NCBI GenBank assembly: GCA_050250895.1
Contig: JBFWNU010000003.1
Location: 128,001-192,000 of the forward strand
Direction of reading: 5' to 3'
Length of the DNA: 64,000 nucleotides
Source: Vulcanimicrobiota bacterium
GTDB taxonomy: Bacteria > Vulcanimicrobiota > Xenobia > Xenobiales > JADMJV01
Shown here: in pieces, positions 6,091-58,962 of the stretch
Layout: every line of letters begins with the position of its first letter
How positions within the stretch are numbered: position 1 is the first letter of the stretch
Position numbers and translations under genes: made by a program
The notes under the pieces: generated by a model
What the model was told of the DNA's origin: nothing
Seen by the model: only the letters and a program-made list of their open reading frames with translations
Databases searched by the model: none

Positions 6091-6653
6091 AGGGGGACCT
6101 CGATCGCGTTGATCGAAAGCCAATCGGATTCCAACTGAAAGTCCACCTCACGCGGGGACGCCACGAGCTCTTCTACCTTGCCGCGATTCTCCTGGTGATA
6201 GCGCTCCAGGTTGTCGGCGAAGTGGCCGGGATCTTGCATGAACATCGTCACGCAGAAGTGGCGATTGTCGTAGGGACCCAGATGCTCCGAAATCTCTTTC
6301 ATGGTGGCCAGGGCGTTCCTGGGGGCGTCGATGTACTTGCGCTCGCGTTCGAACGGAATCAGGCGCTTGTAGTCTTCGACCAGGTCGGCCATCGGCTCGC
6401 CCGGGCGGCGCAACTCGGCCAGCGCCGGAAAGCTGCGGTTGACGGCGCTGGTGGGACAGGCAGTGTGGCGCTTTTCCTCTTCGAAGAGATCGACCATCAC
6501 CTTGCTCATCTCGACCACATCGTCGCCGGGCTGCATGGACGATTCGACCACTCCCAGATGGGTCTGTTCGACCCCTACGCACTCCCAGAATTCGCCCCGG
6601 CGGGCGATGGTCGAGAGCACTTCGATGGCCGGATTCTTAGGAGAGACTCGCAT
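6078..6653 (-). CDS. hypothetical protein
   Basis: 191 aa; normal codon usage; TAGGCT 6 nt upstream of the ATG. Confidence 0.75.
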   Translation of the reverse strand: MRVSPKNPAIEVLSTIARRGEFWECVGVEQTHLGVVESSMQPGDDVVEMSKVMVDLFEEEKRHTACPTSAVNRSFPALAELRRPGEPMADLVEDYKRLIPFERERKYIDAPRNALATMKEISEHLGPYDNRHFCVTMFMQDPGHFADNLERYHQENRGKVEELVASPREVDFQLESDWLSINAIEVPLQAD

Positions 6654-6693
6654 GGGCCTAGCCTAGCCGCTCGCCCTCAAAGAAAGTCGAAAT

Positions 6694-20680: not shown

Positions 20681-21183
20681 GGTTGGACTTCCGTGCGGAA
20701 GTTGCCCGGAATCGGCCCGACAAACTGGTGCGGAGCTGGAACGGCGCTTTCGTGGTGGCTGTCAGGCCGGGCTCGATCACCGGCGTCGCGCAGTTTCTTC
20801 TTGCGCAGGTTGCCGGAGTTGACGGCGGTCCCGGCTGGCTCGACGGCCGTCAGCCGGTTGGAGTCGTCCGAGTCGTTCGCGTACGGCTCGGGTTGAGAAC
20901 CCGGGCGATCGTGGTGCCATTATTGTCGTGGTTAGACGACTCCACCAGCTCGTCTACCCCTCCGCGCACACGTGTGTCAAAATTATTTTCCGATGCGGCC
21001 GCCGAACCGCCTCGGAGGAGCCTCACCCCTAGACTGCTCGTGATAGCCCCTCCAGGACCCCCTCAGGCATTTGAACAGCCGAGTTTGAAGAAATCTTCAT
21101 TTCGGCCTCGAAAAGCTCGAATAATCATCGCTCAGAAAATGCGCAATTGCCTGTAAAATAAGGGTTTGAGTCGCATCGAATCT

Positions 21184-21213
21184 TTGACGAACAAGGGGAG
21201 CAAAGACTATCAT
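21184..21213 (+). promoter_or_regulatory. sigma70-like promoter of the HNH gene (leaderless)
   Basis: TTGACG-N18-TATCAT with ATG 6 nt downstream; hexamers identical in copy 2 (55609-55638). Confidence 0.6.
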
Positions 21214-21219
21214 GGATTT

Positions 21220-22278
21220 ATGATTACCGATGACAAGCAACGCGAATTCTGGACCCTCGAAAACTTGAGCAAGCTCCCTTATGAGCGGCTGGAAAGGGTG
21301 ACCCGTCGCCTGGCCAACACCCTGGCCCTGACTCGCATCCTGCTGGGGCGATGTCTGTTGGCTATCGAGCGCACCGACTTCTGCGCCCAGACCGGCTGCC
21401 ATTCGGCTATCCACTTCGCCCGGCTCATCAAAGTCGAGAAGCGCGAGGCGCTAGATTCAATGAGGATCGCCGGCCATCTCGAAGGGCTGCCGCTGTTTTC
21501 CAAAGCCTGCGAAGAGAACAGAATCTGCTGGTCCAATCTGCGTGTTGTCACCCGCATCGTGACGCCCGAGACCGAAGAGGCCTGGCTTGACCTGGCGGTG
21601 CGCCTCAAGCCTCATCGCCTGGCCCGTCTGGTGGCCGGGGCCAATCGCGGTGACACTCCGGCTGAAGCGGCCCTGAACATGGTAGAAGAGGTGGAGCTTC
21701 GTTTTCGGGTCGCTCCCGAGGTGTCCGAGCTGTGGTCGCGAGCCGTGACCGTGATCTCGAGAGACCATGGGGGCACGGTCAATCCGGCCGAGGCGTTCGA
21801 ATGGATCCTGGCCGACTTTCTGGGTGGCCAGGTAGAGCAGCTCAAGGTTGAGGCCGCCCAGGACCTGGTCGCTCCGGTCGAGGCACTGGCAATGCGGACA
21901 CACGTGTGTCCGGGCGAGTCGAAGTTGCAACTGGCCGGACGGTTGAGGTTCAATCCCAGCAAGCGGCAGGCGACTGCCGCCCAGCGCCGGGCAGTGCTGC
22001 GGCGGGATGGCTATCGCTGCTCTTGTCCGGGTTGCCCCAACCGACTCTGGCTCGATGTGCATCACGTGGTATTCTACTGTCGGGGCGGACCGACGGTGCC
22101 CGAGAATCTGGTGGTGGTGTGCTCGCGCTGCCACAAGAACATCCATCGGGGCATCCTGCAAGTGAGCGGGGTGGCGCCCCGGGAGCTGGTCTGGCGCGAT
22201 CGTCGCGGCCGTGACCTCGAACGCCAGCGAGAGAGCGGGCTATTGGAATGGCTGCTGGAATGGGCTCGAGCTGGCTAA
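21220..22278 (+). CDS. DUF222-like domain plus C-terminal HNH endonuclease
   Basis: RRAVLRRDGYRCSCPGC..LDVHHV..GGPT..ENLVVVCSRCHKNIH; N-region resembles DUF222; start set at MITDD. Confidence 0.88.
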   Translation: MITDDKQREFWTLENLSKLPYERLERVTRRLANTLALTRILLGRCLLAIERTDFCAQTGCHSAIHFARLIKVEKREALDSMRIAGHLEGLPLFSKACEENRICWSNLRVVTRIVTPETEEAWLDLAVRLKPHRLARLVAGANRGDTPAEAALNMVEEVELRFRVAPEVSELWSRAVTVISRDHGGTVNPAEAFEWILADFLGGQVEQLKVEAAQDLVAPVEALAMRTHVCPGESKLQLAGRLRFNPSKRQATAAQRRAVLRRDGYRCSCPGCPNRLWLDVHHVVFYCRGGPTVPENLVVVCSRCHKNIHRGILQVSGVAPRELVWRDRRGRDLERQRESGLLEWLLEWARAG

Positions 22279-22518
22279 GTTGCGGCGACGGAGAAGTGAC
22301 CCCCGATACTAGAACTTTCTCTGGCGGAGGGGGTCGCTGAGCCGTCGCCCCGGGCGGGCTCGTTTCGTGCGCAGTTCCATCAGGTTCGACGTGGTCTGAG
22401 AACTGCGCCCGCGCGCCTTTCAGCGACGCTCACGCCCTTCTCCGTTGCAGTCCTTGCTCACGTCCCGCGGCGCTGGCGAGCGCCCTTTGGGCAAAGAGAG
22501 CGCCAGCGCCCCGGTGGC
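22279..22518 (+). ncRNA. candidate structured ncRNA, copy A (~240 nt)
   Basis: Nested stems 22285-96/22437-48, 22296-304/22329-37, 22338-48/22423-32, 22369-77/22400-08 and 22469-78/22501-10; G-U pairs favour the + strand; three copies in the window. Confidence 0.55.
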
Positions 22519-22521
22519 GTT

Positions 22522-23043
22522 TCAGATACGACACGCGTCCTGAGGTTTCGGCCCGACCGAGCGTCCGGTTCCAAGCTTCTGCGCACGAATACAGTCAAAC
22601 AGTTCGTCACGTCCGATTCTGATTCTCTTAACAGATCCTTCTCTAGTCACTCGCATTTCGAAGGTCTCAACCTCCTGGTGACAGGCGTCGAGAAGAGCCG
22701 ATGGCCCAGTAATCTCGACGCCGTTAACAGCCTGCAATAGGTCGCCAGCTTCTAGGCGCATACAAGCGAAAGCTCCTTGTGGCTCCCTGATTAGCAAGCC
22801 TCCATCAACAAACTCCGCAGGAGGCAAGTATTGCCTTTCGGGTTCGACTTTCTGCTCGTCCTGGGATTCGTGCGCATTTTCTCGCTCCGCTAGTCGCGGA
22901 TAGCACTTTCCCCCTCCATTAACCTGATGTGAGGAACTAACCCGCGTGGTGGTGTCGACTGTTCGGCTGACAAGCTGGGCTCCCAGAGCGACAAAGGCCA
23001 AGACCACAATGATTGTAAGGCTGTTTGCGAGTGATATCTTCAT
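22522..23043 (-). CDS. membrane-anchored PDZ-like protein, putative immunity or partner of the Rhs toxin
   Basis: N-terminal TM; LEAGDLLQAVNGVEI (PDZ-like); ATGA overlap with the toxin stop; lower GC. Confidence 0.65.
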   Translation of the reverse strand: MKISLANSLTIIVVLAFVALGAQLVSRTVDTTTRVSSSHQVNGGGKCYPRLAERENAHESQDEQKVEPERQYLPPAEFVDGGLLIREPQGAFACMRLEAGDLLQAVNGVEITGPSALLDACHQEVETFEMRVTREGSVKRIRIGRDELFDCIRAQKLGTGRSVGPKPQDACRI

Positions 23044-24281
23044 GGCATGTACCTGGTTCCCTCAAAGAGAATGTTCGGGTGCGACTCTATGATTTGCCCC
23101 CTCATACCCTCGAAGTTGCCTTTAAAGAGATCCTTGCGAAAGGCTTCCTGAGCTTCGCGCATCTTGTCTAGCTCTGGAGGGTACAACATTCCGAAGAGAC
23201 TAGAAAGGGTTTCTGCAAAAACCTCCGAGTTAAGTTGGTCATCGGAGTTTTTCCGGCTTGCTCCATAAAAAGTCCACCAAACGTAGTGACCGCACTCGTG
23301 AACCAAGGTATTTAACTCAACTAGCCGAAATGGTCGGGGCTGCTTTTCTATGAAGATGTCCACAGACCCGTCTTCATTCAACCTTGCCGCTCCGTATTTC
23401 CCACCCATGCGTTCAATGTCATTGCCCTTCACGTAATTGATTTTTGGAGGCGGCACCAGAGCTTGGGCTAGGCCCAGATAGAGCGAGTCCGCTCCTTGTT
23501 CCAGAGAGCCGAACCAAGATTCCAAGCCACTCGGGTCGACCTTGCCAATCGGATTCCCGCCAACATACCCATACAGGTTCAAGCCACCCGCAAACCCGAT
23601 CGGGTCGCGACTCAAGAACCTGGCGGTGGCGGGGTCATAATGGCGCTGGCGCATGTAGAGCAAGCCGGTATCGGCGGTGTCGTCGTGGACGCCCAGGCCA
23701 CCCACGTAGGTCTTCGGACTCACCACCGAGCCCGAGTAGGCGATCTGCTGGCCGAACTCGTCGTATTCATAATAGGCCAACTGACTGCCATCGGCGCCGT
23801 CCACGACCACCCGCACCGATGAGAGCCCATCGGTTAGGAAGAAGCGGAAGTCGCCACCGCGGTCAAAGCCCAGGAGTTGGTGACCCATGAAGTAGCTGAT
23901 CTCCACCGGTGAACCGGCGCTCGGCGTCTCGACCTCGCTCACGGTTGGCAAGCCAGAGAAGTGGCTACGGGTCTCGGTACCGTCGGCAGCAGTCTTGAGC
24001 TTGCGCAAGCCGCCAGTATCGTAGTGTTGGACGACGGTCTCGTCGGCAGGTTGTTTCTCGACCGCAACCAAACGGTCGAAAGTATCCCACGAGAAAGTGT
24101 TGGTGTTGGTGCCGTCGTCCGACTCGATCATGTCCCCATCATCGTCGTAGGCAAAGGTCTCCACCGATGTCGTGAAATCTCCTTCGTCCCGAGACTGGAA
24201 GGTCCCGGAGAAGATCTCCTGGAGTTGATTCGCGTCGTCATAGTCGTAAAGGTAGCTCACGCTAGCTCCGTGGTCGTCCAT
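23040..24281 (-). CDS. Rhs repeat-associated core with C-terminal HExxH metallopeptidase-type toxin (3' part of a broken rhs gene)
   Basis: GLLYMRQRHYDPATARFLSRDPIG..NLYGYVGGNP..DPSGL; C-terminal domain has VHECGH...SEVFAE. Confidence 0.85.
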   Translation of the reverse strand: MDDHGASVSYLYDYDDANQLQEIFSGTFQSRDEGDFTTSVETFAYDDDGDMIESDDGTNTNTFSWDTFDRLVAVEKQPADETVVQHYDTGGLRKLKTAADGTETRSHFSGLPTVSEVETPSAGSPVEISYFMGHQLLGFDRGGDFRFFLTDGLSSVRVVVDGADGSQLAYYEYDEFGQQIAYSGSVVSPKTYVGGLGVHDDTADTGLLYMRQRHYDPATARFLSRDPIGFAGGLNLYGYVGGNPIGKVDPSGLESWFGSLEQGADSLYLGLAQALVPPPKINYVKGNDIERMGGKYGAARLNEDGSVDIFIEKQPRPFRLVELNTLVHECGHYVWWTFYGASRKNSDDQLNSEVFAETLSSLFGMLYPPELDKMREAQEAFRKDLFKGNFEGMRGQIIESHPNILFEGTRYMP

Positions 24282-49245: not shown

Positions 49246-52200
49246 ATGAAGATCGGGTCGTTCCAACCCAATACCCCGCCCGTGCGCACCGCTGCCGTCT
49301 CGCCCGCCCTGGTCGACGCCTATCGCCCCTGGCAGGCTGAGGGAGATTGGCAAACCGGCACCAACTGGCGCGGTCAGGCCATCTGGAAGAGCAACTCGGG
49401 CCGCTACGAGGACAGCCAGAACACCAGTCTGACCAGCCAGCCCCTGTCGCTGCGGGGGTTGACCCAGCCGCGCTTGAAGTTCCGTTGTGGCTACGGCCTC
49501 GAGGACAGCTACGACCATGTCCATCTCGAACTCAAGACCGAACACGGCAGCTGGCGCGAACTCAAGGACTTCACCGGCAAGACCTGGCTGGGCAAAGATG
49601 TCGACCTCGACCTGTCTGGTTATCAGGGAGAAGTCGTCCAGTTGCGGTTTCGGTTGCGCACCGACGGCAGCAATTCGGGCAGCGGTTTCAAGTTTTCCAA
49701 GCTTCGCCTGGAAGGGTTCGACTTCGAGGGCAAGCCTGTAAACCACTCGTTGCAATCGACCCAGGGACCCGATTTGAGTGGCCTCTCCGATCAGCAGTCG
49801 GCGCAGCTCGAGCAGCTGACCCGTCAGTTGGGAAGCCCCGAGGATGCCTATCTTTTGTGGCAGAGCCATCCCAATCCTCAGCCGGGCCTGGTCGAGCTGA
49901 CCCGTCAGGCCGGAGCGGCCGAGGCGGTGGCCAGCTGGCCCCTGGTCGAGGCCGACGACAAGGCTCAAGAGCGCATGGAATGGCTACGCCAAAAGGTGGA
50001 CGGAAAGCTGGCTCGCCAGGTCTGGCCCACGGTCCAGGCCGGCGACGAGAGCTCTTTAGAAGCGCTGGCTGCTGCCTCGGGCAGTTTTGCCAAAGCCGCT
50101 CAGCTCTGGCCGTTGGTGGCCGAGCGACGCGATCAGGCTGATTTCTCGGACCTGCTGGATGGTTTGGGCAAACTGGCTAGCGAGGCTGAACCCGAGGAAA
50201 TCAAAAATCGCTGGTCTTTGCTCGGGCATGGTCCCCAGACTCTGACCGACCGGCTAAGCCTGTACCGGGCCGCCCGCCGCCTGTCTGAAAAGGACGGGGT
50301 GGAACTCTATTGCAAGCTGGTCACGGCCGGCGCCGACGGAAGCACCGGCCAGACCCTGCACGACCTGCTCAGCCACAACCGGGACTGGAGTGGCGACTGG
50401 GGTCAGGAGAAGAGCCTGTTAAAAGGCCAGGTTTGGAGCGATAGCCCGGGCGGAAAGTATGCCAGCAGCGCTCGCACCAGCCTGACCAGCCCGCCCATTC
50501 CGCTGGCCGAATGCGAGCAGCCGAAGGTCCACTTTTCGGCCTTCTATAGTCTCGAAGATGGCTACGACAAGGTGCATCTCGAGGCGGCCGGGCGCGACGG
50601 ACACTGGCGGTCGCTAGACACGTTCACCGGCAGCAGCTGGATGTGGAAGCACAAGTCCTATGCCCTGGACGCCTTCGGACGCCAGCCCGTGCGCTTTCGC
50701 TTTCGCCTCGAGAGCGATGGCTCCAACGAGAAAGACGGCTTTTCGCTGGCCGACCTGCGGGTCGAGGATTCGGCCGGCCGCTGCCTGCGGCCCGAGGGCA
50801 AACCCGATGCGTTCGCCCAACCCCTGGTCGATTTCGCCATTGCTCATCCTGACCGCCTCGAGCAGCTGGGCTCGGTGGCCGACCAGCTGGGCTCGGTGCG
50901 ATCGGGCTTGGACTTTCTGCAGGCCTTCGATACGCCCGCCAACCACCCCCAACAGGCTCAGCACCGCCAGGCCCTGGTCGAACTCTTCGATCTGGCCGGC
51001 TCGAAGGCGGCGGCTGCCTGCTGGCCCCTCATCAAAAGCTCCAGGGAAAAGGACTTCGCGGGTCAGGCGGCCTTGCTCAAGTGGGGCCTCGACCAGACGG
51101 GGCCCGACCAGCTCAAAGCTCTGTGGCCAAGCCTGGCCTCCGGCGACCAGTCTCGGCTGGCTGCCTTCACCCGGCAGTTGGGCAGCTTCGAGAGCGCTGC
51201 TTCGCTCTGGCCGCTGGTCTCGCAGCGACGCCACCAACCGGGCTTTGACGGCGAGCTGACCCAACTCGCGTCGTTGGTGGAAACGGTCGGCCTTGACGAG
51301 GCCCGTCGCCGACTTTCTGGGCAGACCGATTTGGAGAGTCACCTGGCCCTCGAAGAAGTGGCTTCGCGACTGGCACCCGGCCAGTCGGAACCTCTCTCGC
51401 AGCGGCTTCACCAGGCCGGTCTCGACCCGGCCGGAGTCAAGGCGCTACTGTCTTTGACCGAGCAGATGACCTTCTGGAAGGCCGAGGGCAGCTGGGGTAG
51501 GGAAGGCAGCCTGTTCAAGGGTTCATGCTGGAGCGATAGTCCCAAAGCCAACTATCCTGACAGCGCCGACTATTCCCTCACCAGCCAGCCGTTGGACCTC
51601 TTCGGTCTCAAAGAGGCCACCCTCCATCTTTCTTCGCGCTTTTCGTTGGAAGACGGCTATGATTTCGCTCGTCTCGAGTTGGGCACGGCCGACGGCCGCT
51701 GGCACGAGTTGCACAAATTCACCGGCAACCGCCCGGTTTGGTGGAGTAACGACTTTGATCTGGGCGACTACGCCGGCCAGAAGGTTCGCTTGCGGTTTCG
51801 CCTCACCAGCGACGGCTCGCGCGCCAAGAGCGGCTTTTCCTTTGCTGGCCTGCGACTTGACGGCCGGGCCCCCGATGGCTCGAGAATCAGTCGTCACCTC
51901 GACCAGCCCGACCGTAGCCAGTCCATCCAGCAGCTGGTGGACCTGGCCTGCGATCCCAACCTGCCGGCGGCCGAGCGCAGCCAGAAGCTGCAGACTCTCG
52001 ACAGCGTCTCGCAGCGATTGAATAGTCCCGAAGCAGGCTTGGCCTTCATGCCTTTCGACCAGAGCCCCGAACGCGAGCTGGTCCTGCAGGCTTTCGCCAG
52101 CTGCGGAGAGGGGGCGGCCGGTCGGGCGGCCAGCCTGGGCGTCTCCTTGCGGGACCGCGATCCCACCCTGAAGTGGCTCAGCCAGCACGGCCAGACCGGC

Positions 52201-53493
52201 AGCGACGAGTTCTGGCGCCGCTGCCTGAGCAACAACGGCCTGGTTCCTTCGACACTCGATCGCATCAGCCGGCTGGCCGAACAGTTGGCTCGGCAACCCG
52301 AGCAGCGCCAGGCCTTCGTCGAGGCGATCGTGGCCGGCGGCGCCTGGGACATCCAGCAGCTACACATGCTCGAGGGCATGGCCCACAACCTGACCGGCTG
52401 GAAGTCCGAGAGCGGCTGGGGTGCCGAGCGTACCTGGTTGCACGGCAAGGTCTGGTCCGATAGCCCGGGAGGCAAGACGCCCTCGAATGCCGACCACCGG
52501 CTGGTCAGCTCGCCCCTTTCTCTGAAGGGCCTCAGCGATACCCGCCTGGCTCTCACCGGCAGCTTCAGTCTGGAAGACGGCTACGACCACCTTCACGTGG
52601 AAGTGCAGGCGGGCGGCAGCTGGCGGACCGCCGAGAGCTATACCGGACGCGGCTTCTGGCGCACCCGCGAGGTGGATCTGAGCAGCTACGACGGTCAGGA
52701 CATTCAGCTTCGCCTGCGCCTGAATACCGACGGGAGCAAGAACGGCGACGGTTTCAAACTGGGCAAGGCCACCATCAAGGCGAACCGCAACGGCAAGCCG
52801 GTCAACCTGGTGATCGGGCAGTCGCCCGACGAAAACCTGGCCAGTTCGCTGGTGCGCTACCTGGACAAGCCCGAGACGCTGGGGGTCTGGATGCGGTTGG
52901 TTGGCCTGGGCATGGCTCCCGACGCCCAGCACGCCTTGCTCGACCTGGCTCACAACGGCGTCGATTCGTCCCAGCTGCTGAAGCTGCTCGAGTTTTCTGG
53001 CCTCGATCGGGCCGAAGAGCTGTGGCAGAAGGTGGCCCAGGATCCGGCCCGATTGTTGCCGGTGATGGCCTCGGCCCACTATCTGGCCGACGCCACGGAC
53101 AAGCCCGAGCTGCCTTTGTATGAACGCCTCTCCCAGTCAAGGGTCGAGGGGACCTCGCTCGAGCGCCTGGCCCGCCAGGCCGACGCTGCCGACGCGGACT
53201 ATCTGGTGCGCCTGGCCGGCTCGAGCCACCGCGACCGGGACAAGGCTTTGCGCTTGCTGGCCTCGGGTCGCGAGCCGGCCGCCGTGGTCAAGTTTCTGGC
53301 CGGCAAGAGCCGGGGCGCGGTTTCGGTCAGCGGTACCATCGACTTTCTCGACCGCCTCAGCCGGGCCACCCTGCTCGAGGACACCCCGTTGCAAGAGCTG
53401 ATGGAGTCGCTCTATCGCGAGTCGACCGAGCTGCTGCTCGACGACGAGTCGCTCACCGTCGGCGACTACACCGTCGAGGTTCGCTCGGAGTAG
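49246..53493 (+). CDS. 1415-aa protein with four immune-inhibitor-A/MAM-like beta-sandwich repeats
   Basis: Four units with LED(G/S)YD..E..W..TG..(L/F)R(F/L)RL.(S/T)DGS..GF; WSDSP in units 2-4; no signal peptide. Confidence 0.8.
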   Translation: MKIGSFQPNTPPVRTAAVSPALVDAYRPWQAEGDWQTGTNWRGQAIWKSNSGRYEDSQNTSLTSQPLSLRGLTQPRLKFRCGYGLEDSYDHVHLELKTEHGSWRELKDFTGKTWLGKDVDLDLSGYQGEVVQLRFRLRTDGSNSGSGFKFSKLRLEGFDFEGKPVNHSLQSTQGPDLSGLSDQQSAQLEQLTRQLGSPEDAYLLWQSHPNPQPGLVELTRQAGAAEAVASWPLVEADDKAQERMEWLRQKVDGKLARQVWPTVQAGDESSLEALAAASGSFAKAAQLWPLVAERRDQADFSDLLDGLGKLASEAEPEEIKNRWSLLGHGPQTLTDRLSLYRAARRLSEKDGVELYCKLVTAGADGSTGQTLHDLLSHNRDWSGDWGQEKSLLKGQVWSDSPGGKYASSARTSLTSPPIPLAECEQPKVHFSAFYSLEDGYDKVHLEAAGRDGHWRSLDTFTGSSWMWKHKSYALDAFGRQPVRFRFRLESDGSNEKDGFSLADLRVEDSAGRCLRPEGKPDAFAQPLVDFAIAHPDRLEQLGSVADQLGSVRSGLDFLQAFDTPANHPQQAQHRQALVELFDLAGSKAAAACWPLIKSSREKDFAGQAALLKWGLDQTGPDQLKALWPSLASGDQSRLAAFTRQLGSFESAASLWPLVSQRRHQPGFDGELTQLASLVETVGLDEARRRLSGQTDLESHLALEEVASRLAPGQSEPLSQRLHQAGLDPAGVKALLSLTEQMTFWKAEGSWGREGSLFKGSCWSDSPKANYPDSADYSLTSQPLDLFGLKEATLHLSSRFSLEDGYDFARLELGTADGRWHELHKFTGNRPVWWSNDFDLGDYAGQKVRLRFRLTSDGSRAKSGFSFAGLRLDGRAPDGSRISRHLDQPDRSQSIQQLVDLACDPNLPAAERSQKLQTLDSVSQRLNSPEAGLAFMPFDQSPERELVLQAFASCGEGAAGRAASLGVSLRDRDPTLKWLSQHGQTGSDEFWRRCLSNNGLVPSTLDRISRLAEQLARQPEQRQAFVEAIVAGGAWDIQQLHMLEGMAHNLTGWKSESGWGAERTWLHGKVWSDSPGGKTPSNADHRLVSSPLSLKGLSDTRLALTGSFSLEDGYDHLHVEVQAGGSWRTAESYTGRGFWRTREVDLSSYDGQDIQLRLRLNTDGSKNGDGFKLGKATIKANRNGKPVNLVIGQSPDENLASSLVRYLDKPETLGVWMRLVGLGMAPDAQHALLDLAHNGVDSSQLLKLLEFSGLDRAEELWQKVAQDPARLLPVMASAHYLADATDKPELPLYERLSQSRVEGTSLERLARQADAADADYLVRLAGSSHRDRDKALRLLASGREPAAVVKFLAGKSRGAVSVSGTIDFLDRLSRATLLEDTPLQELMESLYRESTELLLDDESLTVGDYTVEVRSE

Positions 53494-53537
53494 CACTGGC
53501 TCGCCGTTGCGTGGGCCGGGACCAGGATGGGCCCGGT

Positions 53538-53620
53538 TGTGCGCCGCACAATGAGTCGACCGGCGTGTACGGCGCACACGTGCGCCGCACAATAGCTCGA
53601 CCGAGGTGTGCGGCGCACAT
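53538..53620. repeat. two tandem ~42-bp palindromic units
   Basis: gtgcgccgcacaat..tcgaccg..tgt(a/g)cggcgcaca repeated twice; each unit can form a hairpin. Confidence 0.75.
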
Positions 53621-53703
53621 TTGGCAGGCGGCGAGGGCTCGCACCTGTGGTTGGCGGCGTCGGTCTAGCGGTACAGTCGCGGGGGCGCATTTCGGATTTC
53701 GAG

Positions 53704-53941
53704 GTTGCGGCGACGGTGAAGTGACCCCCGCTAGTCGTGCTTTCTCGCTGACGGGGTCGCTGAGCCGTCGCCCCGAGCGCGCTCCTAGCGCGGGCAGTTC
53801 CATCAGGTTCGACGTGGTCTGATAACTGCGCCCGCGCGCCTTTCAACGACGCTCACGCCCTTCTCCGTTGCAGTCCTTGCTCACGTCCCGGGGCGCTGGC
53901 GAGCGCCCTTTCGTGAAAGGGCGCGCCAGCGCCCCGGTGGC
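53704..53941 (+). ncRNA. candidate structured ncRNA, copy B (no adjacent upstream HNH gene)
   Basis: Aligns with 22279-22518; same stems; terminal hairpin ggggcgctggcg..gcccttt-cgtg-aaagggc..cgccagcgcccc. Confidence 0.55.
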
Positions 53942-53952
53942 TTGGGGGTCCC

Positions 53953-54240
53953 TCAGGGAACTCCCAAGCCCTTCATTACCAAAGCCTCCATTCGGTCGAC
54001 ATGGTTGCGATATTCCTCGACAGAGATATTGGGTGCTTCCTGCCAACTCATAAACAGGGGAATGAACCAGGTTAGAGCGACCAAGCGTTGTGGCATATGC
54101 TCAACATTAGGGTTCAGACACTCAAGTAGAGACTCCACTCTTCGAAAACCTTCTTGGTCAAAACCCTTCATCCTGAGTATTGCAAAGAATCCTGATTCCC
54201 ACTCATGCTCGAGTTTTTCGATGATTTCTTGATTGTTCAC
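53953..54240 (-). CDS. putative immunity protein of the Rhs ART toxin
   Basis: 95 aa; lower GC; GGAGG Shine-Dalgarno; 9 nt downstream of the toxin stop. Confidence 0.75.
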   Translation of the reverse strand: MNNQEIIEKLEHEWESGFFAILRMKGFDQEGFRRVESLLECLNPNVEHMPQRLVALTWFIPLFMSWQEAPNISVEEYRNHVDRMEALVMKGLGVP

Positions 54241-54249
54241 GCTACCTCC

Positions 54250-55155
54250 TCAAGGTCTGATTTGCCATTGAATAGCTTCCGGTGGAACGAAGTCTCGGAT
54301 GAGGACTTCCTTGCCCATTCTCGCCCAAGCATTTAGCATTCTTGCCGCCGGTCCAAACGGCCCTGACGAAATATCTACGATTTCCGTGGTCACCAAAGAA
54401 AGGTCAATCTTGACCTGACCGAAAAAGCCATTCTTCGTGAATTGCATTGCGGCCTCGCTGGTCTTTGCAGTCGAGATCCATGGACTTAGTCTCTTACCTG
54501 CGACGTGTGACATTGGTGTCACTTCTGTAGCGCCCGGCGCGCGCGCCTGCAATCCTGCTGATGGATTTTCGCCTGGAGCCAGATTGCGAAAGACATACCC
54601 CTTCGGACATTCCTCCGCTGCGTTGGCGGCGGCGGAGAAGCCGAGTGCTGCCTCACCTGACACCGTGGCCGCACGGGCGACCCTGGCCGCGGCCAGATTC
54701 GAGCTTAGCCCCGTGGCGGATCCTACCAGAACCAAGGCGTAGTATGCGCTTTGAGCCTTTGTAGCCTTGCCGGAACCCCAGCCCTGACCAGCTTCCTGGG
54801 CAACCGTCGCTCCGCTCACGTCGAGCATCACGCCCCATGCTCGAAGCCCTGTTGCCTCCACCCAGCCACCAAGTCCGCCCCGGTCAATCGCGAGATTTGC
54901 TTGTTGGTCGAGATATACCTTGTTGGCGTGGGGGTCATCGAAAGTCCCTAGGCCTTCCAATCCGCTGGGGTCAGAGTGATTAACGGGATTCCCGCCGACA
55001 TACCCATACAGGTTCAAGCCACCAGCGAACCCAATCGGGTCCCTGCTCAGGAACCTGGCTAAGGTCGGGTCGTAATGCCGCTGCCGCATGTAGAGCAGCC
55101 CGGTGTCGGCCGTGTCGTCGTGCACGCCCAGGCCACCCACGTAAGTCTTCGGGCT
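54250..55155 (-). pseudogene. orphan Rhs core tip with C-terminal R-S-E ADP-ribosyltransferase-type toxin
   Basis: PKTYVGG...DPSGL core almost identical to 23530-23720; C-terminal domain has YVFRN, SPWIST and KEVL; no upstream YD repeats or convincing start. Confidence 0.78.
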
Positions 55156-55644
55156 ATCCGAGTCGGAACTCGGGTCCTTCGCCCCCCCATTCGTTGTGGA
55201 GGAAGTTGGAGGTCGCCCCGTTCGAGGCATTGACCATCACCCGAGCCGAGGAAAGCCCAGACCTCGGAGACCGTCGGCGTCGCGCACTTTCTTCTTGCGC
55301 AGGTTGCCGGAGTTGACGGTGTCCCGGCTCGACGGCCGTCAGCCCGTTGGAGTCGTTCGCGTCGGCTCAGGCCGAGGACCCTACCCCCCCCCGCACACGT
55401 GTGCCAAAAAAAATAAGATGCGGCCGCCCAACCGCCTCGGAGGTGCCTCCCCCCTAAACTGCTCGTGACAGCCTCTCCAGGACCCCCTCAGGCACTTGGC
55501 CAGCCGAGTTTGAAGAAATCTTCATTTTGGCCTCTCAAAGCTCGAATAATCATCGCTTAGAAAGTGCGCAATTGCCTATGAAATAAGGGTTTGAGCTGCA
55601 TCGAATCTTTGACGAACAAGGGGAGCAGAGACTATCATGGACCT

Positions 55645-56703
55645 ATGATTACCGATGATAAGCAACGCGAATTCTGGACCCTCGAGAACTTGAGCAAGCT
55701 CCCTCACGAGCGGCTGGAAAGGGTGATCCGTCGCCTGGCCAACACCCTGGCCCTGACTCGCATCCTGCTGGGGCGATGTCTGTTGGCTATCGAGCGCACC
55801 GACTTCTGCGCCGAGACCGGCTGCCACTCGGCTATCCATTTCGCCCGGCTGATCAAAGTCGAGAAGCGCGAGGCGCTAGATTCGATGCGGATCGCCGGCC
55901 ATCTCGAAGAGCTGCCGCTGTTTTCCAAAGCCTGCGAAGAGAACCGAATCTGCTGGTCCAATCTGCGTGTGGTCACCCGCATCGTGACGCCCGAGACCGA
56001 AGAGGCCTGGCTTGACCTGGCGGTGCGCCTTAAGCCTCATCGCCTGGCCCGTCTGGTGGCCGGGGCCAGCCGCGGTGACACTCCGGCCGAGGCGGCCCTG
56101 AACCTGGTAGAAGAGGTGGAACTCCGTTTCCGGGTCGCTCCCGAGGTGTCCGAGTTGTGGTCGCGGGCCGTGGGCGTGATCTCGAGGGAACACGGCGGCA
56201 CGGTCAATCCGGCCGAGGCGTTCGAATGGATCCTGGCCGACTTTCTGGGCGGCCAGGTAGAGCAGCTCAGGGTCGAGGCCGCCCAGGAGCTGGTCGCTCC
56301 GGTCGAGGCGCTGGCAATGCAGACACACGTGTGTCCGGGCGAGTCGAAGTTGCAATTGGCCGGACGGTTGAGGTTCAATCCGAGCAAGCGGCAGGCGACT
56401 GCCGCCCAGCGCCGGGCAGTGCTGCGGCGGGATGGCTATCGCTGCTCTTGCCCGGGCTGCCCCAATCGACTTTGGCTCGATGTGCATCACGTGGTGTTCT
56501 ACTGTCGCGGCGGACCGACGGTGCCCGAAAACCTGGTGGTGGTGTGCTCGCGCTGCCACAAGAACATCCATCAGGGCATCCTGCGCGTGAGCGGGGTGGC
56601 TCCCCAGGGGCTGGTCTGGCGCGATCGCCGGGGGCGCGAGCTGGAACGCGAGCCCGAGAGCGGGCTATTGGAATGGCTGCTGGAATGGGCTCGAGCTGGC
56701 TAA
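55645..56703 (+). CDS. DUF222-like domain plus HNH endonuclease, copy 2
   Basis: Same length as copy 1 and nearly identical protein; HNH motif intact. Confidence 0.88.
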   Translation: MITDDKQREFWTLENLSKLPHERLERVIRRLANTLALTRILLGRCLLAIERTDFCAETGCHSAIHFARLIKVEKREALDSMRIAGHLEELPLFSKACEENRICWSNLRVVTRIVTPETEEAWLDLAVRLKPHRLARLVAGASRGDTPAEAALNLVEEVELRFRVAPEVSELWSRAVGVISREHGGTVNPAEAFEWILADFLGGQVEQLRVEAAQELVAPVEALAMQTHVCPGESKLQLAGRLRFNPSKRQATAAQRRAVLRRDGYRCSCPGCPNRLWLDVHHVVFYCRGGPTVPENLVVVCSRCHKNIHQGILRVSGVAPQGLVWRDRRGRELEREPESGLLEWLLEWARAG

Positions 56704-56920
56704 GTTGCGGCGACGGAGAAGTGACCTTTTCTGGCTTTGGGGTGCTGAGCCGTCACCCGCGGGCGCGCTCGTTTCGTGCGCAGTTCAATCAGGTTTATCG
56801 TGGTCCGAGAACCGCGCCCGGGCGCCTTTCAGCCATGATCACGCCCTTCTCCGTTGCACTCCTTGCTCACGTCCGCGGCGCTGGCGAGCGCCCCTTTGGG
56901 CCCAGAAAGCGTCATCGCGC
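56704..56920 (+). ncRNA. candidate structured ncRNA, copy C (more diverged)
   Basis: Starts right after TAA; retains gcgacggagaag/cttctccgttgc and ccttgctcacgtcc; other stems weakened. Confidence 0.5.
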
Positions 56921-56985
56921 CTAGCCCCGATTTCGCGGTAGACGATCTCGGCGAGGCGTCCGTGGCCGAATCCCTCAAAAACTCG

Positions 56986-57078: not shown

Positions 57079-58962
57079 TCAGTCGTGGACGTCGAGGCTG
57101 AAGTCGCCGATGGTGACCTGGTCGTCCGAGACGATGATGCGTTGGTCCTTGTCGGTCGAATCGATGAGCGCTTCGCCGACCTTGAGGGGGCGGCCGAGGT
57201 CGATGACCAGGGTGCCGCCATTGGCTCCCATGGCCAGCACTTTGCCCTCTTTGGTGGCCACCAGTTCGGCCACCGCGCTGTCCAACTTGTACGCGGATAC
57301 GGGCTGGCCCGGCTGCATGACATAGACGTGGCCGCTGGCCGAACCGGCCACGGCCAGATAGTCATCGCCGGCCCTCAGCGGCAACACTTCGGTGAACGGC
57401 TGGCCGTCGTCGGTCCAAAAGGTGGTGCGCTTGAACTCGTTGGGCCGGCCGGCCGGCAGCTCGATGGTCAGAAAGTGGTCGAAGTCCTCGGGCACACGGC
57501 CCCAGCGCACTCGGGCGTCGCTGAGGTCAGGGAAGACGGCGACCTGAGCTGTCTTGGAGCTGGCTAGAAGCTTGCTCGAGAGGGTGCTGGCACTCACGCC
57601 GGCCTGGGTCAAAGCCTGGTCTTGAGTGGAGGGTTCGGCGAACTGGGCGCAGCCGTCGGCTAGCACTCCGCCGAGGCTCCACAGGGTCGGCTTGAGGCTG
57701 ACCTTGTCGTTGTGGTGCTGAAACTCGCGGAGATAGCCTTCGAGAGTGGGGTGACGGTGGTAGTGGCCCAGGTTGGGGTCGGCCAGCAGGGGCGCGTCGA
57801 GGCTCACCGGGCTCGGGTTGCCGTCGCGGTCAAGCGCGATGGGACCGTTGCTCGACACGATGGCCAGCCGGCCGTCGGCCAGAGGGGCAAAGTGGAACAT
57901 CGGGCGATCGTCAGGCTCTGAGTAGATTTCGACCGGATGGTCCGCCAGGCCCACCGAGTGGGTGATGAGCCCCCAGCCAGTCTGGGCCTGATCGAGGTCT
58001 ATCCGAAGCAAGAGGCGAGCCTTGGGCTCCTGGTGCCAGCGACGGCCGGCCACGTAGGCTTCGTTGCCGTCGCGCGAGAGGCGCACCTCTTCGACCGAAC
58101 CGCGGAAGGTGAATTTCTTGAGCTTCTCGCCGTCGGGTGAATAGAGGCGAAAAGTAGACTTGGTGTAGTCGTGATGCTCGCGCACCAGCACCGAGCCGTC
58201 GGGGCGGGGTAAGATGTCCTGGATGTCGTCCGAGACGGCGAACGAGCGGCTGGCGCCGGTAGCCAGATCGAGGCTGGTCAGTTGCTTGTCCTGTCTGAAG
58301 GTCAGGCGGTCGGCGCCATAGTGGGTATAGGTGGGGCTCGCGTCTTGCTGGTAGATGGTCTGGCCGTCGCTGCCGAGGACTTCCAGGCTGCGCCCGGTGA
58401 CCACCAGCTTGCCGTCAGGCAAGAGCAGGGCGCGACTCATGTTGTCGTAGCTCTTGGGAGTCACTTCGCGGGTCGAGTCGAGGCGTGAGTCGGTCACCAG
58501 CAGCCGGTCAGGGCCGCCCACCACCAGGCCGTTTTCGTTGACATCCAGCCGGGTTGCCTCAAAGGGAAGGTTTAGCTCGGCGGTGGGTTGGCCGGTTTGG
58601 CCGTCGAGGCTCTGCAGGCGGCCTTTCTCGAGCACGAAGACGCGACCCGAGTGCTGCTCGCACTCGAGGCTGACGAAGTCGGGAGTGCGCTCGAATTCAT
58701 ACAGCTTCTCGCCCTGGCGACTCCAGCCGGTGATGGTCTTCTCGCCCAGCTTGACGAAGTTCTGACCGGTGAAGAGCAGGCGGTCAAAGCGACCGAGGGG
58801 TTGCTGATGAACCTGCTCGAATCCGCCGGCAGTGGCCCGATAGAGCGAGGCCTCGAGTGGCCTGGCCGACCCCTCGTAACCGTCGGTGGGGCCGGTGGCA
58901 GCGGCTCGGGGCGACGGACGCAAATTTGCCGGAGTGGCTCCGTTTACACCTGAAATGACCAT
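57079..58962 (-). CDS. beta-propeller-like hypothetical protein
   Basis: Repeated PDG/ADG/RDG turns between short strands; acidic C-terminal tail VTIGDFSLDVHD. Confidence 0.72.
   Translation of the reverse strand: MVISGVNGATPANLRPSPRAAATGPTDGYEGSARPLEASLYRATAGGFEQVHQQPLGRFDRLLFTGQNFVKLGEKTITGWSRQGEKLYEFERTPDFVSLECEQHSGRVFVLEKGRLQSLDGQTGQPTAELNLPFEATRLDVNENGLVVGGPDRLLVTDSRLDSTREVTPKSYDNMSRALLLPDGKLVVTGRSLEVLGSDGQTIYQQDASPTYTHYGADRLTFRQDKQLTSLDLATGASRSFAVSDDIQDILPRPDGSVLVREHHDYTKSTFRLYSPDGEKLKKFTFRGSVEEVRLSRDGNEAYVAGRRWHQEPKARLLLRIDLDQAQTGWGLITHSVGLADHPVEIYSEPDDRPMFHFAPLADGRLAIVSSNGPIALDRDGNPSPVSLDAPLLADPNLGHYHRHPTLEGYLREFQHHNDKVSLKPTLWSLGGVLADGCAQFAEPSTQDQALTQAGVSASTLSSKLLASSKTAQVAVFPDLSDARVRWGRVPEDFDHFLTIELPAGRPNEFKRTTFWTDDGQPFTEVLPLRAGDDYLAVAGSASGHVYVMQPGQPVSAYKLDSAVAELVATKEGKVLAMGANGGTLVIDLGRPLKVGEALIDSTDKDQRIIVSDDQVTIGDFSLDVHD

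What the first reader, a model, noticed from the sequence alone, without database searches (positions are those of the whole stretch)
53704..53941. Stand-alone third copy of the structured sequence without an upstream HNH gene
Seen: homology starts at exactly the same nucleotide (GTTGCGGCGACGG) that follows the stop codon in the complete elements, and ends at the same CCGGTGGC as copy A. No HNH remnant is visible upstream. This copy has the best-paired terminal hairpin. Inference: sharp boundaries independent of the ORF suggest a self-contained unit (trans-acting RNA, non-autonomous element or recombination site) rather than a passive 3' UTR.
Basis: partly seen in the sequence, partly recalled or inferred. 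Interest (0 to 1): 0.8.

Follow-up and report, generated by a model that had tools for sequence, protein, structure and literature searches.

The report
Hairpin repeat capping Rhs toxin cassettes
This 238-base hairpin-rich repeat is not an appendage of the HNH gene: it is the conserved end-piece found behind nearly every Rhs toxin-immunity cassette of this uncultured bacterium, and probably marks where such cassettes are exchanged.

Summary
Copy B (53704-53941) starts at the same base as the two HNH-linked copies, has no HNH remnant upstream, and has the best-paired terminal hairpin of the three.

The reading changes once the whole genome and the opposite strand are examined. The sequence belongs to a repeat family seen in this genome only: 48 profile hits, of which 25 carry the outer arm. 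Six copies follow a 370-aa HNH gene. Seven are HNH-free, B among them. Twelve are arm-only, and six of those sit in about 640-bp units with a diverged inverted left arm.

The constant partner is on the minus strand. In 22 of 25 copies a small low-GC3 ORF ends within about 110 nt of the outer end, and an Rhs-core toxin ORF precedes it. Conversely, 20 of 26 Rhs core ends have the repeat about 1.1 kb downstream. The 22 adjacent small ORFs fall in 21 unrelated clusters.

The HNH gene, a distant DUF222-HNH selfish type, is a separately bounded unit that ends at its stop codon.

Best reading: a DNA-level boundary module of Rhs cassettes that serves as a recombination anchor. That mechanism is inferred, not shown. 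A trans-acting or guide RNA is unlikely. I class it as a new variant of known Rhs orphan-cassette arrays, of moderate interest.

The parts
53704..53941 (+). Copy B of the repeat: hairpin 1, hairpin 2 and terminal hairpin. It has no HNH gene at its inner edge and lacks the last 7-8 nt (CGTTTCAG) of the family terminus.
53709..53772 (+). Hairpin 1: a two-tier stem (GGCGACGG/CCGTCGCC, then GTGACCCCC/GGGGTCGC) around a TGAA/TGAG internal loop.
   Evidence: Fold. RNAalifold on 12 copies gives 17 pairs, 5 of them with compensatory changes.
53792..53831 (+). Hairpin 2: 8-bp plus 4-bp stems closing the conserved 12-nt loop GTTCGACGTGGT (53807-53818).
   Evidence: Alignment A2 and pair counts. B forms 11 of 12 pairs.
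53890..53935 (+). Terminal hairpin: 11-bp and 9-bp stems, a GA bulge and a CGTG loop.
   Evidence: B forms 21 of 21 pairs.
53953..54240 (-). 95-aa ORF with low GC3 (0.51), convergent on B, with its stop 12 nt from B's end. It sits in the immunity-gene position. That role is inferred from position only.
   Evidence: No Pfam or NCBIfam hit.
54250..55230 (-). Orphan Rhs fragment of 326 aa: the end of the Rhs core (…DPSGL) followed by a variable C-terminal toxin domain.
   Evidence: TIGR03696 Rhs_assc_core, E 1.5e-20. Degenerate upstream continuation to about 55380.
55381..56703 (+). HNH1 unit: about 210-nt leader plus 370-aa ORF (55591-56703). The palindrome CACACGTGTG occurs at 55394 (the 5' boundary) and at 56324 (inside the ORF).
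56704..56935 (+). Copy C, HNH-linked. It is the most decayed copy: 76-83% identical to the other type-1 copies, with 12 of 21 terminal pairs.
20956..22278 (+). HNH1 unit of copy A (ORF 21166-22278). Palindromes at 20967 and 21899.
22279..22525 (+). Copy A, HNH-linked, with the complete terminus …GGTGGCGTTTCAG. The TCA at 22522-22524 is the stop codon (TGA) of the convergent ORF.
22522..24281 (-). Cassette behind copy A: a 173-aa immunity-position ORF (22522-23043) and a 413-aa Rhs core-CT fragment (23040-24281).
   Evidence: TIGR03696, E 1.2e-20

Best explanation
Copy B is an HNH-free member of a hairpin-rich DNA repeat found only in this genome. The repeat forms the conserved distal flank of Rhs toxin-immunity cassettes.

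Read on the Rhs (minus) strand, each cassette has three parts: an Rhs-core fragment with its variable toxin tip, a small immunity-position gene, and the repeat. B closes the last cassette of its array. Copies A and C carry a separately bounded selfish HNH gene at their inner edge. That gene is of the DUF222-HNH type, with an HTH-like N-terminal domain and a McrA/IscB-like HNH domain.

Most likely mode of action (inferred): the repeat works as DNA. Together with the conserved Rhs core it brackets a hypervariable stretch of about 1.1 kb. It would supply the downstream homology, and a structure-prone break or pause site, for gene conversion, deletion and duplication of toxin/immunity cassettes. 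Direct copies such as B and C, 3.0 kb apart, could loop out a cassette together with its HNH gene. As a by-product, its strong hairpins end or stabilise the convergent transcripts.

Shown: the family, its boundaries, its conserved hairpins, its near one-to-one link with Rhs cassettes, and its independence from the HNH ORF.

Inferred: the recombination role, the immunity function of the small ORFs, and any role of the HNH nuclease.
For: - **Link to cassettes.** 22 of 25 arm-bearing copies have a convergent ORF of 260 aa or less whose stop lies within about 110 nt of the outer end, and a larger ORF precedes it. The larger ORFs in the window carry Rhs_assc_core, E about 1e-20. 16 of the 25 loci share one Rhs protein cluster.
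- **Reciprocal link.** 20 of 26 Rhs core-end modules in the genome have the arm convergent 933-1999 nt downstream, 19 of them at 933-1224 nt. The other 6 sit at contig ends or are degenerate fragments.
- **Conserved repeat against variable DNA.** The 22 small ORFs fall in 21 unrelated clusters.
- **Shared terminus.** In 5 copies (A, C3:17648, C4:513656, C8:367976, C7:429745) the ORF's TGA stop lies inside the terminal GTTTCAG.
- **Independence from HNH.** Only 6 of 25 copies follow HNH1. Of 9 near-full HNH1 genes, 6 have a complete copy, 2 a truncated copy and 1 none. HNH1 and HNH2 units end at their stop codons.
- **DNA-level symmetry.** 8 diverged arms occur inverted as left arms and keep the hairpins through compensatory changes. 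93.7% of cells are paired, against 37-50% when the partners are slid. 12 pairs and 79 cells carry double changes, against 22.7 cells in shuffles (0 of 500 shuffles reach the observed value).
- **Exchange among copies.** B combines type-1 hairpin 1 with the CGTG loop otherwise seen in three arm-only, type-2 copies, two of which have a detected inverted left arm.
- **Analogue in another genus.** In G002, 4 of 15 Rhs cassettes share a hairpin-rich segment of about 160 nt, 0.9-1.4 kb behind the core end. It includes a terminator-like hairpin followed by a T run.
- **Known background.** Polymorphic toxins diversify by recombination of toxin-immunity cassettes onto a constant gene body (PMC3482391, passages read).
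Against: - No recombination event was observed. No population data, RNA data or empty sites could be obtained.
- A plain homology arm does not need hairpins kept by compensatory change, nor inverted left arms. Those features point to recognition by a protein, or to a transposon past.
- Outer ends are ragged, truncated at different bases in B, C3:505980, C11:120911, C17:1407 and C15:11682. That argues for imprecise joining rather than clean homologous exchange within the repeat.
- The repeat was not found in 40 relatives, so Rhs diversification in general does not require it.
- The narrow cassette length (1085 +/- 92 nt) is not explained.
- G-U versus A-C counts do not say which strand folds.
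Confidence: 0.5

Rival explanations
1. The repeat is a non-autonomous mobile element (MITE- or REPIN-like). Its two inverted arms are recognised in trans by a nuclease or transposase, possibly the HNH protein. It inserts preferentially just behind Rhs immunity genes. B would be a half element: the right arm plus hairpin 1.
For: - Six units of about 640 bp have a diverged inverted left arm, a spacer, a hairpin-1 analogue and a right arm. Their left termini are sharp (CTGAAACG), mirrored by CGTTTCAG on the right.
- Three of these units look nearly identical in the alignment, yet abut different small ORFs of 210, 170 and 241 aa.
- One HNH1 gene is bracketed by a left and a right arm (C3:15461-17887).
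- The family is confined to one genome, as young mobile repeats are.
Against: - No target-site duplication is visible at the two units that keep both termini (read by eye).
- Right termini are ragged while left termini are intact.
- No transposase shares these ends. The genome has no Y1 (RAYT/TnpA) gene. The single IS110-family gene lying between two arms is a one-off.
- 22 of 25 copies sit at one kind of site and about 1.1 kb from an Rhs core end. Co-duplication with Rhs loci explains that as well as targeting does.
- HNH-only proteins are not known transposases (recalled, not tested here).
Confidence: 0.25
2. The element acts as RNA in cis. On the minus strand it is the 3' untranslated end of the Rhs-immunity transcript, and on the plus strand that of the HNH transcript where one is present. 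Its hairpins stop transcription or block 3' exonucleases, insulating orphan cassettes from read-through.
For: - It lies directly after the stop codon of the convergent ORF in 22 of 25 copies.
- Folding is very stable (z about -5) on both strands.
- The analogous repeat behind Rhs cassettes in G002 contains a GC stem followed by a T run in the Rhs sense.
- REP elements are known to stabilise upstream mRNA (recalled, no call).
Against: - There is no T run after the hairpins on either strand, and no terminator-like call at B.
- About 240 nt with three conserved hairpins and a conserved 12-nt loop is far more than termination needs.
- Inverted left arms lie where no gene ends.
- It could not be tested with expression data.
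Confidence: 0.15
3. The element is a guide or scaffold RNA for the HNH protein, an OMEGA-like pair as in TnpB. There the RNA spans the 3' end of the gene and the element's right end, and takes its guide from the flanking DNA. B would be a stand-alone guide gene.
For: - The element starts right after the HNH stop codon in 6 full copies.
- The HNH domain's best NCBIfam match is the HNH region of IscB, E 1.2e-10 but far below that family's cut-off.
- The outer end abuts variable DNA.
Against: - No RuvC or RNA-binding domain: Pfam finds HNH only.
- The N-terminal half resembles ParB/Noc-type HTH DNA-binding domains, weakly.
- No Rfam match, HEARO and IS605-orfB families included.
- HNH homologs in 28 loci of relatives carry no such 3' element.
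- HNH2 paralogs lack it.
- Most copies (19 of 25) have no HNH gene at their inner edge, and arms occur inverted.
- No promoter-like site upstream of B.
Confidence: 0.03
4. B is a leftover: an HNH-linked copy whose gene was deleted.
For: Among the HNH-free copies, only B keeps the exact GTT start of the HNH-linked copies.
Against: - No HNH trace upstream at protein or DNA level.
- Four other full solo copies begin within 3 nt of the same base, next to unrelated repeats.
- The tree of 11 copies is unresolved, so no derivation can be read from it.
Confidence: 0.05

Closest known systems
Rhs / CDI orphan toxin-immunity cassette arrays ('C-terminal displacement'). Sources: PMC3482391 (passages read); PMC3967940 and PMC3150448 (search listing and abstract only).
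   Same: - Truncated Rhs core fragments carry different C-terminal tips.
- Each is followed by a small gene and stacked in arrays.
- Variable DNA is bracketed by conserved core sequence.
   Different: - Nearly every cassette (20 of 26) ends in one conserved, hairpin-rich repeat of 160-240 nt lying convergent to it.
- The core-to-repeat distance is held at about 1.1 kb.
- HNH genes sit at the cassettes' truncated 5' ends.
- I found no description of such a structured boundary element in two full-text searches.
REP / REPIN doublets and MITEs (recalled: Bertels and Rainey 2011; no paper read here)
   Same: - Non-coding, palindromic and multi-copy.
- Inverted doublets occur.
- Placed just behind convergent gene ends, and lineage-specific.
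   Different: - Arms are about 165 nt with three distinct hairpins rather than one of about 35 nt.
- No RAYT/Y1 gene in the genome.
- Almost confined to Rhs cassette ends.
- No target duplication seen.
REP13E12 / DUF222-HNH repeated genes of Actinobacteria, for the HNH gene only. Source: PMC10589994, passage read, which cites Gordon et al. 1999.
   Same: - A multi-copy gene of about 370-600 aa with a helical N-terminal domain and a C-terminal HNH domain.
- Distant homologs of HNH1 carry PF02720 plus PF01844.
   Different: - HNH1 itself does not reach PF02720.
- It lives in Eremiobacterota, and in this genome it sits inside Rhs arrays.
- It carries a 14-bp palindrome twice per unit.
TnpB / IscB omega-RNA (OMEGA) systems (recalled: Altae-Tran 2021, Meers 2023; no paper read here)
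   Same: A structured non-coding stretch abuts a nuclease ORF and an element end.
   Different: - No RuvC domain and no Rfam match.
- The element is mostly unlinked to the nuclease gene and occurs in both orientations.
- The nuclease looks like an HTH-guided DNA binder.
Conserved 3' repeat of Neisseria pilE/pilS cassettes (Sma/Cla repeat) as a recombination anchor (recalled analogy; no call)
   Same: A conserved non-coding repeat downstream of each silent and expressed variable cassette, thought to aid gene conversion.
   Different: The organism, sequence and gene family are unrelated. A role in conversion is not shown here.

Membership tests
Rhs orphan toxin-immunity cassette array | Rhs core-end domain (TIGR03696, …DPxGL) at the start of the toxin tip | tested here: met
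   Window ORFs 54250-55230(-) and 23040-24281(-) score E 1.5e-20 and 1.2e-20. The genome has 23 matches to the family, or 26 by tblastn.
Rhs orphan toxin-immunity cassette array | Variable C-terminal tip followed by a small cognate immunity gene | tested here: inconclusive
   A small ORF is present in 22 of 25 copies, and these ORFs are mutually unrelated (21 clusters). Immunity function is inferred from position, size and low GC3 only. No family hit.
Rhs orphan toxin-immunity cassette array | Orphans lack the N-terminal delivery part and lie downstream of a full-length rhs gene | tested here: inconclusive
   The fragments of 326 and 413 aa are truncated. Full-length genes precede the repeat at C15:7056, C2:7739 and C5:84245. 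No full-length rhs gene was found next to the B/C array: the 627-aa ORF 57079-58962 has no hit.
MITE / TIR transposon | Terminal inverted repeats | tested here: met
   Left and right arms of about 165 nt with termini CTGAAACG…CGTTTCAG in 6 units. B itself has only the right arm.
MITE / TIR transposon | Target-site duplication | tested here: not met
   None is visible at C2:469604-470240 or C15:6900-7433, the two units with both termini intact (read by eye).
MITE / TIR transposon | Autonomous partner with the same ends that encodes a transposase | tested here: not met
   Only an HNH1 gene (C3:15461-17887) and one single-copy IS110-family gene (C10:4750-5862) lie between arms.
REPIN-RAYT | RAYT (Y1 transposase, PF01797) gene in the genome, flanked by the repeats | tested here: not met
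   0 matches in G000. The control genomes gave matches.
OMEGA (IscB / TnpB plus omega-RNA) | RuvC-containing nuclease (IscB, TnpB), or the PLMP-HNH IshB architecture | tested here: not met
   Pfam finds HNH only. The IscB model matches only its HNH region, 41 bits against a cut-off of 175.
OMEGA (IscB / TnpB plus omega-RNA) | RNA matching a described omega-RNA/HEARO family | tested here: not met
   No Rfam match at gathering score across the window. The best E is about 0.2, to unrelated families.
OMEGA (IscB / TnpB plus omega-RNA) | RNA-guided cleavage of a target that matches the flank | not testable with these tools
   Needs biochemistry.
DUF222-HNH (REP13E12-like) gene family, for the neighbouring gene | HNH catalytic and zinc motif | tested here: met
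   PF01844, E 1e-6 at residues 295-328. H299, H300, N314, H323, H327 and the cysteines are invariant in 16 homologs.
DUF222-HNH (REP13E12-like) gene family, for the neighbouring gene | DUF222 (PF02720) N-terminal domain | tested here: inconclusive
   Not reached by HNH1 itself at E<=0.1. Homologs at E 1e-11 to 1e-6 carry PF02720.
Integron attC cassette site | IntI integrase nearby and inverse core sites (R''/R') | not tested
   No integrase turned up among the recurrent neighbours, but no dedicated search was run. The termini do not read as RYYYAAC/GTTRRRY (by eye; the motif is recalled).

The most novel reading that the evidence does not exclude
The repeat is the recombination site of an undescribed cassette-shuffling system for Rhs toxins. 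Hairpin arms recognised by DUF222-HNH nucleases would bound size-limited toxin-immunity cassettes of about 1.1 kb. The cassettes would be cut or looped out between direct copies (for example B and C) and re-inserted at other copies. This would be an integron-like or homing-like engine for polymorphic toxins.
Probability: 0.12. Interest if true: 0.85.

Novelty: new variant of a known kind. Interest (0 to 1): 0.45.

Why it matters
How new toxin tips and their immunity genes are joined to Rhs genes is usually put down to homologous recombination in the conserved core. The downstream junction is rarely defined.

This genome offers a defined, structured downstream boundary present at nearly all of its cassettes. 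It also shows a tight length limit on the variable part, and selfish HNH genes at the cassettes' broken 5' ends.

If the boundary element proves to be an active recombination or nuclease target, it would give a testable mechanism for toxin-cassette exchange. If not, it is still a clean example of a lineage-specific repeat that travels with Rhs loci. It also warns against reading 'gene plus structured 3' tail' as an RNA-guided pair.

Tried and rejected
- **Rfam.** Whole window at gathering score, and a 701-nt stretch at E<=10: nothing credible.
- **Expression data.** No RNA holder listed.
- **Element outside this genome.** blastn in 40 relatives gave 0. A covariance model in the same 40 gave 0. 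One exact degenerate pattern scanned in genome contigs and in metagenome contigs gave 0 each. The own genome may be left out of those collections, and only one 28-nt pattern was tried.
- **Empty-site test through synteny.** The 1415-aa left neighbour has no match in 5 relatives, and the right neighbour has only 31-33% identical matches elsewhere. No usable synteny.
- **Which strand folds.** G-U versus A-C counts are not decisive: 124 against 84 over all predicted pairs, and about 14 against 23 in the well-supported helices by my own tally.
- **Extra homology left of B.** Local alignment to the inverted-repeat units' spacer gives only weak, unconvincing scores.
- **Order of events from a tree of 11 type-1 copies.** All 8 inner branches are unsupported.
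- **HNH-Rhs linkage beyond this genome.** No Rhs core within +/-1.5 kb of the HNH homolog in 28 loci of relatives.
- **IS110 as the mobiliser.** Single copy in the genome.
- **Conventional promoter or terminator at B.** None called.

Full report
**1. The observation**

The 13-mer GTTGCGGCGACGG occurs exactly three times in the window, at 22279, 53704 and 56704. At 22279 and 56704 it follows the stop codon of two 370-aa ORFs (21166-22278 and 55591-56703). Their only Pfam domain is HNH, at residues 295-328. With 100-nt flanks aligned, copy B (53704-53941) matches A and C from that base onward and not before. B versus A is 89.6% identical over 240 nt.

Upstream of B lie the end of a 1415-aa InhA-like MAM protein gene (49246-53493) and a 210-nt spacer. 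There is no HNH trace. The genome-wide tblastn finds nothing there. A permissive tblastn of 53494-53703 gives a best E of 1.9, and blastn of the HNH unit gives a 14-nt match with E 0.22. B's terminal hairpin forms 21 of 21 modelled pairs, against 19 for A and 12 for C.

One correction is needed. The family's true outer terminus is …GGTGGCGTTTCAG. A has it; B stops at GGTGGC.

**2. The family in the whole genome**

The window is G000:C3:128001-192000 in a 9.5-Mb, 63% G+C assembly of 17 contigs. Earlier notes of this scan call the organism Eremiobacterota/Vulcanimicrobiota. A source names an 89%-identical HNH protein 'Candidatus Eremiobacteraeota bacterium'.

A profile of 11 full copies finds 48 hits, of which 25 carry the outer ('right') arm. 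They fall into three classes:
- 6 directly follow an HNH1 gene.
- 7 have hairpin 1 but no HNH gene at their inner edge. Five are complete (B, C2:886848, C4:513656, C8:367976, C10:11165) and two are truncated.
- 12 start only at profile position 76-100.

Six of the last class belong to units of about 640 bp. These consist of a diverged inverted copy of the arm (the 'left arm'), a spacer, a hairpin-1 analogue of different sequence but the same two-tier shape, and the right arm. Their termini are CTGAAACG…CGTTTCAG. One HNH1 gene (C3:15461-17887) is bracketed by a left and a right arm.

Inner edges of the five full solo copies lie within 3 nt of each other, at the base of hairpin 1. Their left flanks are unrelated sequence, partly other genome-wide repeats.

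**3. The structure is conserved**

On 33 arms (25 right, 8 left) I named a structure of hairpin 2 (8+4 bp closing the loop GTTCRACGTGGT) and a terminal hairpin (12+9 bp). It is paired in 93.7% of cells, against 37-50% when the partners are slid. Twelve pairs and 79 cells carry changes on both sides, against 22.7 cells in shuffles (0 of 500 shuffles reach the observed value).

Most of these changes separate a few lineages: left versus right arms, and one right-arm subfamily. They therefore represent few events. Hairpin 1 has 5 of 17 pairs with compensatory change across three sequence types.

The counts do not show which strand folds. The same arm, with its loop sequence, occurs in both orientations. 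That suits a DNA feature recognised symmetrically better than one RNA.

**4.

In 22 of 25 copies a convergent ORF of 95-245 aa with low GC3 (0.50-0.63) ends within about 110 nt of the outer end. It is usually preceded, often with a 4-nt overlap, by a larger ORF.

The larger ORFs are Rhs proteins or fragments. Window ORFs 54250-55230(-) and 23040-24281(-) match Rhs_assc_core at E about 1e-20. ORFs of more than 1,700 aa occur at C15:7056, C2:7739 and C5:84245.

The link also holds the other way. 20 of 26 Rhs core ends in the genome have the arm convergent 933-1999 nt downstream. The six exceptions sit at contig ends or are degenerate. The family search counts 23 core domains in G000.

The 22 small ORFs form 21 unrelated clusters. 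In five copies, A among them, the small ORF's TGA stop lies inside the terminal GTTTCAG.

So B is not alone. It closes the cassette 55230→53953 on the minus strand.

**5. The HNH genes are separate units**

Homology among HNH1 loci begins about 210 nt upstream of the ORF, at CCCCTCCGCGCACACGTGTGTC, and the unit ends at the stop codon. Left of that boundary lies a truncated Rhs core fragment on the minus strand. In the copies whose left flank was read it is broken at …|RVLDPS (four copies), or 17 codons earlier in A and C4:596561.

A second paralog group, HNH2 (35-38% identical), lies in the opposite orientation relative to the repeat, also at the 5' break of Rhs fragments. It too ends at its stop codon and has no 3' repeat.

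Of 9 near-full HNH1 genes, 6 have a complete repeat after them, 2 a truncated one and 1 none.

HNH1's distant homologs carry DUF222 plus HNH. This is the REP13E12-type gene (PMC10589994, passage read).

An AlphaFold model (pLDDT 76) was searched against the PDB:
- The HNH domain resembles McrA, ScoMcrA, Cas9 and IscB HNH domains.
- The N-terminal helical half weakly resembles ParB/Noc/Spo0J HTH domains.
- No match reaches E 0.001.

The palindrome core CACACGTGTG (mostly within GACACACGTGTGTC) occurs 19 times in the genome. Eighteen of these are inside HNH1 units: at the 5' boundary of seven units and inside the coding sequence of eleven HNH1 genes or fragments.

HNH homologs occur in 14 of 15 genomes of the same family. 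They carry no such 3' element, and no Rhs core lies within 1.5 kb in 28 loci. I read the HNH genes as selfish site-specific endonuclease genes that have colonised Rhs arrays in this genome, not as the owners of the repeat.

**6. Distribution**

The repeat was not found in 40 related genomes by blastn or by covariance model. One exact pattern found nothing in two public collections.

Another genus does have an analogue. In G002, 4 of 15 Rhs cassettes share a segment of about 160 nt, 0.9-1.4 kb behind the core end. It is made of hairpins, including a GC stem followed by a T run in the Rhs sense. A fifth cassette shares an adjacent segment.

**7. What it most likely does**

Polymorphic toxins diversify by recombining toxin-immunity cassettes onto a constant gene body (PMC3482391, passages read).

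Here the variable stretch is bracketed by the conserved core on one side and this repeat on the other. I therefore favour a DNA-level boundary module that supplies downstream homology, and possibly a structure-prone initiation site, for cassette conversion, deletion and duplication.

Signs of exchange:
- B joins type-1 hairpin 1 to the CGTG loop otherwise seen in three arm-only copies, two of which have a detected inverted left arm.
- Inverted-repeat units that look nearly identical in the alignment abut unrelated small ORFs.

Direct copies such as B and C (3.0 kb apart) or C1:368560 and C1:371688 (3.1 kb apart) could loop out a cassette together with its HNH gene. This is inference; no event was seen.

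Points against the favoured reading:
- Compensatory maintenance of the hairpins, and the inverted left arms, ask for more than homology.
- The ragged outer ends speak for imprecise joining.

A mobile-element origin (the inverted-repeat units) is compatible and is kept as the main rival. A cis-acting RNA end is a lesser rival. A guide RNA for the HNH protein is unlikely.

**8. Unexplained**

The distance from the Rhs core end to the repeat's outer end is 1085 +/- 92 nt in 19 cassettes. Yet the toxin-tip part ranges from 177 to 696 nt and the immunity part from 310 to 911 nt (r = -0.83). None of 20,000 re-pairings gave as small a spread of the sum. Where ORF calling places the border inflates the anticorrelation, but the constancy of the total does not depend on ORF calls.

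**9. Limits**
- All ORFs outside the window come from my own simple ORF picker.
- 'Immunity' is positional.
- No expression or population data were available.
- No synteny with relatives was available for an empty-site test.
- Comparisons with REPIN/RAYT, OMEGA systems, the E. coli Rhs H-repeat and the Neisseria Sma/Cla repeat rest on recall, not on papers read here.
- That such a boundary element is not in print rests only on the full-text searches.

Noticed in passing
window 53539-53619: Two tandem 41-nt palindromic units (GTGCGCCGCACAAT…GGCGCACA). They belong to a genome-wide repeat family with more than 30 loci, often in arrays. The family is unrelated to the HNH gene and to the finding's repeat.
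   Followed up: partly
window 55394, 56324, 20967, 21899 (and 14 further sites in G000): The palindrome core CACACGTGTG (mostly within GACACACGTGTGTC) occurs 19 times in the genome, 18 of them in HNH1 units: at the 5' boundary of 7 units and inside the ORF of 11 HNH1 genes or fragments, in the linker between the two domains. Several homologs in relatives also carry 12-34-bp perfect palindromes in that linker or right after the stop codon (L038, L028, L025, L034). This may be a binding or cutting site of the protein.
   Followed up: partly
G000: C11:32229-35498, C3:638935-640237, C3:228857-230837, C11:103171-104007, C6:173072-173480, C1:3341590-3342523 and others: Distant paralogs of the HNH gene's N-terminal domain (25-36% identical) are flanked by tandem arrays with a period of 110-170 nt or more. 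The arrays are built around palindromes of the type ACTTCC-NNNN-GGAAGT. This is a second, different gene-plus-repeat association in the same protein superfamily.
   Followed up: no
G000:C10:4750-5862 (locus L119:51-1163): A single-copy IS110-family transposase gene (PF02371, PF01548) sits between a right arm (4507-4645) and a left arm (6627-6793) of the repeat. It looks like an insertion into one of the inverted-repeat units.
   Followed up: yes
19 Rhs cassettes of G000 (list); in the window 53941-54946 and 22518-23517: The length from Rhs core end to repeat end is held at 1085 +/- 92 nt, although the toxin-tip and immunity parts vary two- to four-fold and the small ORFs are unrelated in sequence.
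   Followed up: partly
G002 loci L110:1457-1623, L112:1322-1479, L117:1054-1225, L111:1006-1163: In another genus of the same family, 4 of 15 Rhs cassettes share an unrelated hairpin-rich repeat of about 160 nt, 0.9-1.4 kb behind the core end. It includes a terminator-like GC stem followed by a T run.
   Followed up: partly
window 57079-58962 (-): A 627-aa ORF with high GC3 (0.82) convergent on copy C, with no Pfam or NCBIfam match. It takes the place of the usual immunity and toxin pair.
   Followed up: no
window 50393-52476: Three 65-nt direct repeats inside the 1415-aa ORF. They probably reflect its four InhA-like MAM domain repeats, that is, protein-level repeats.
   Followed up: no
window 53942-53968: A short palindrome, CTTGGGGGTCCC-TCA-GGGAACTCCCAAG, spans the stop codon of the 95-aa ORF, exactly where B's terminus is cut short.
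   Followed up: no
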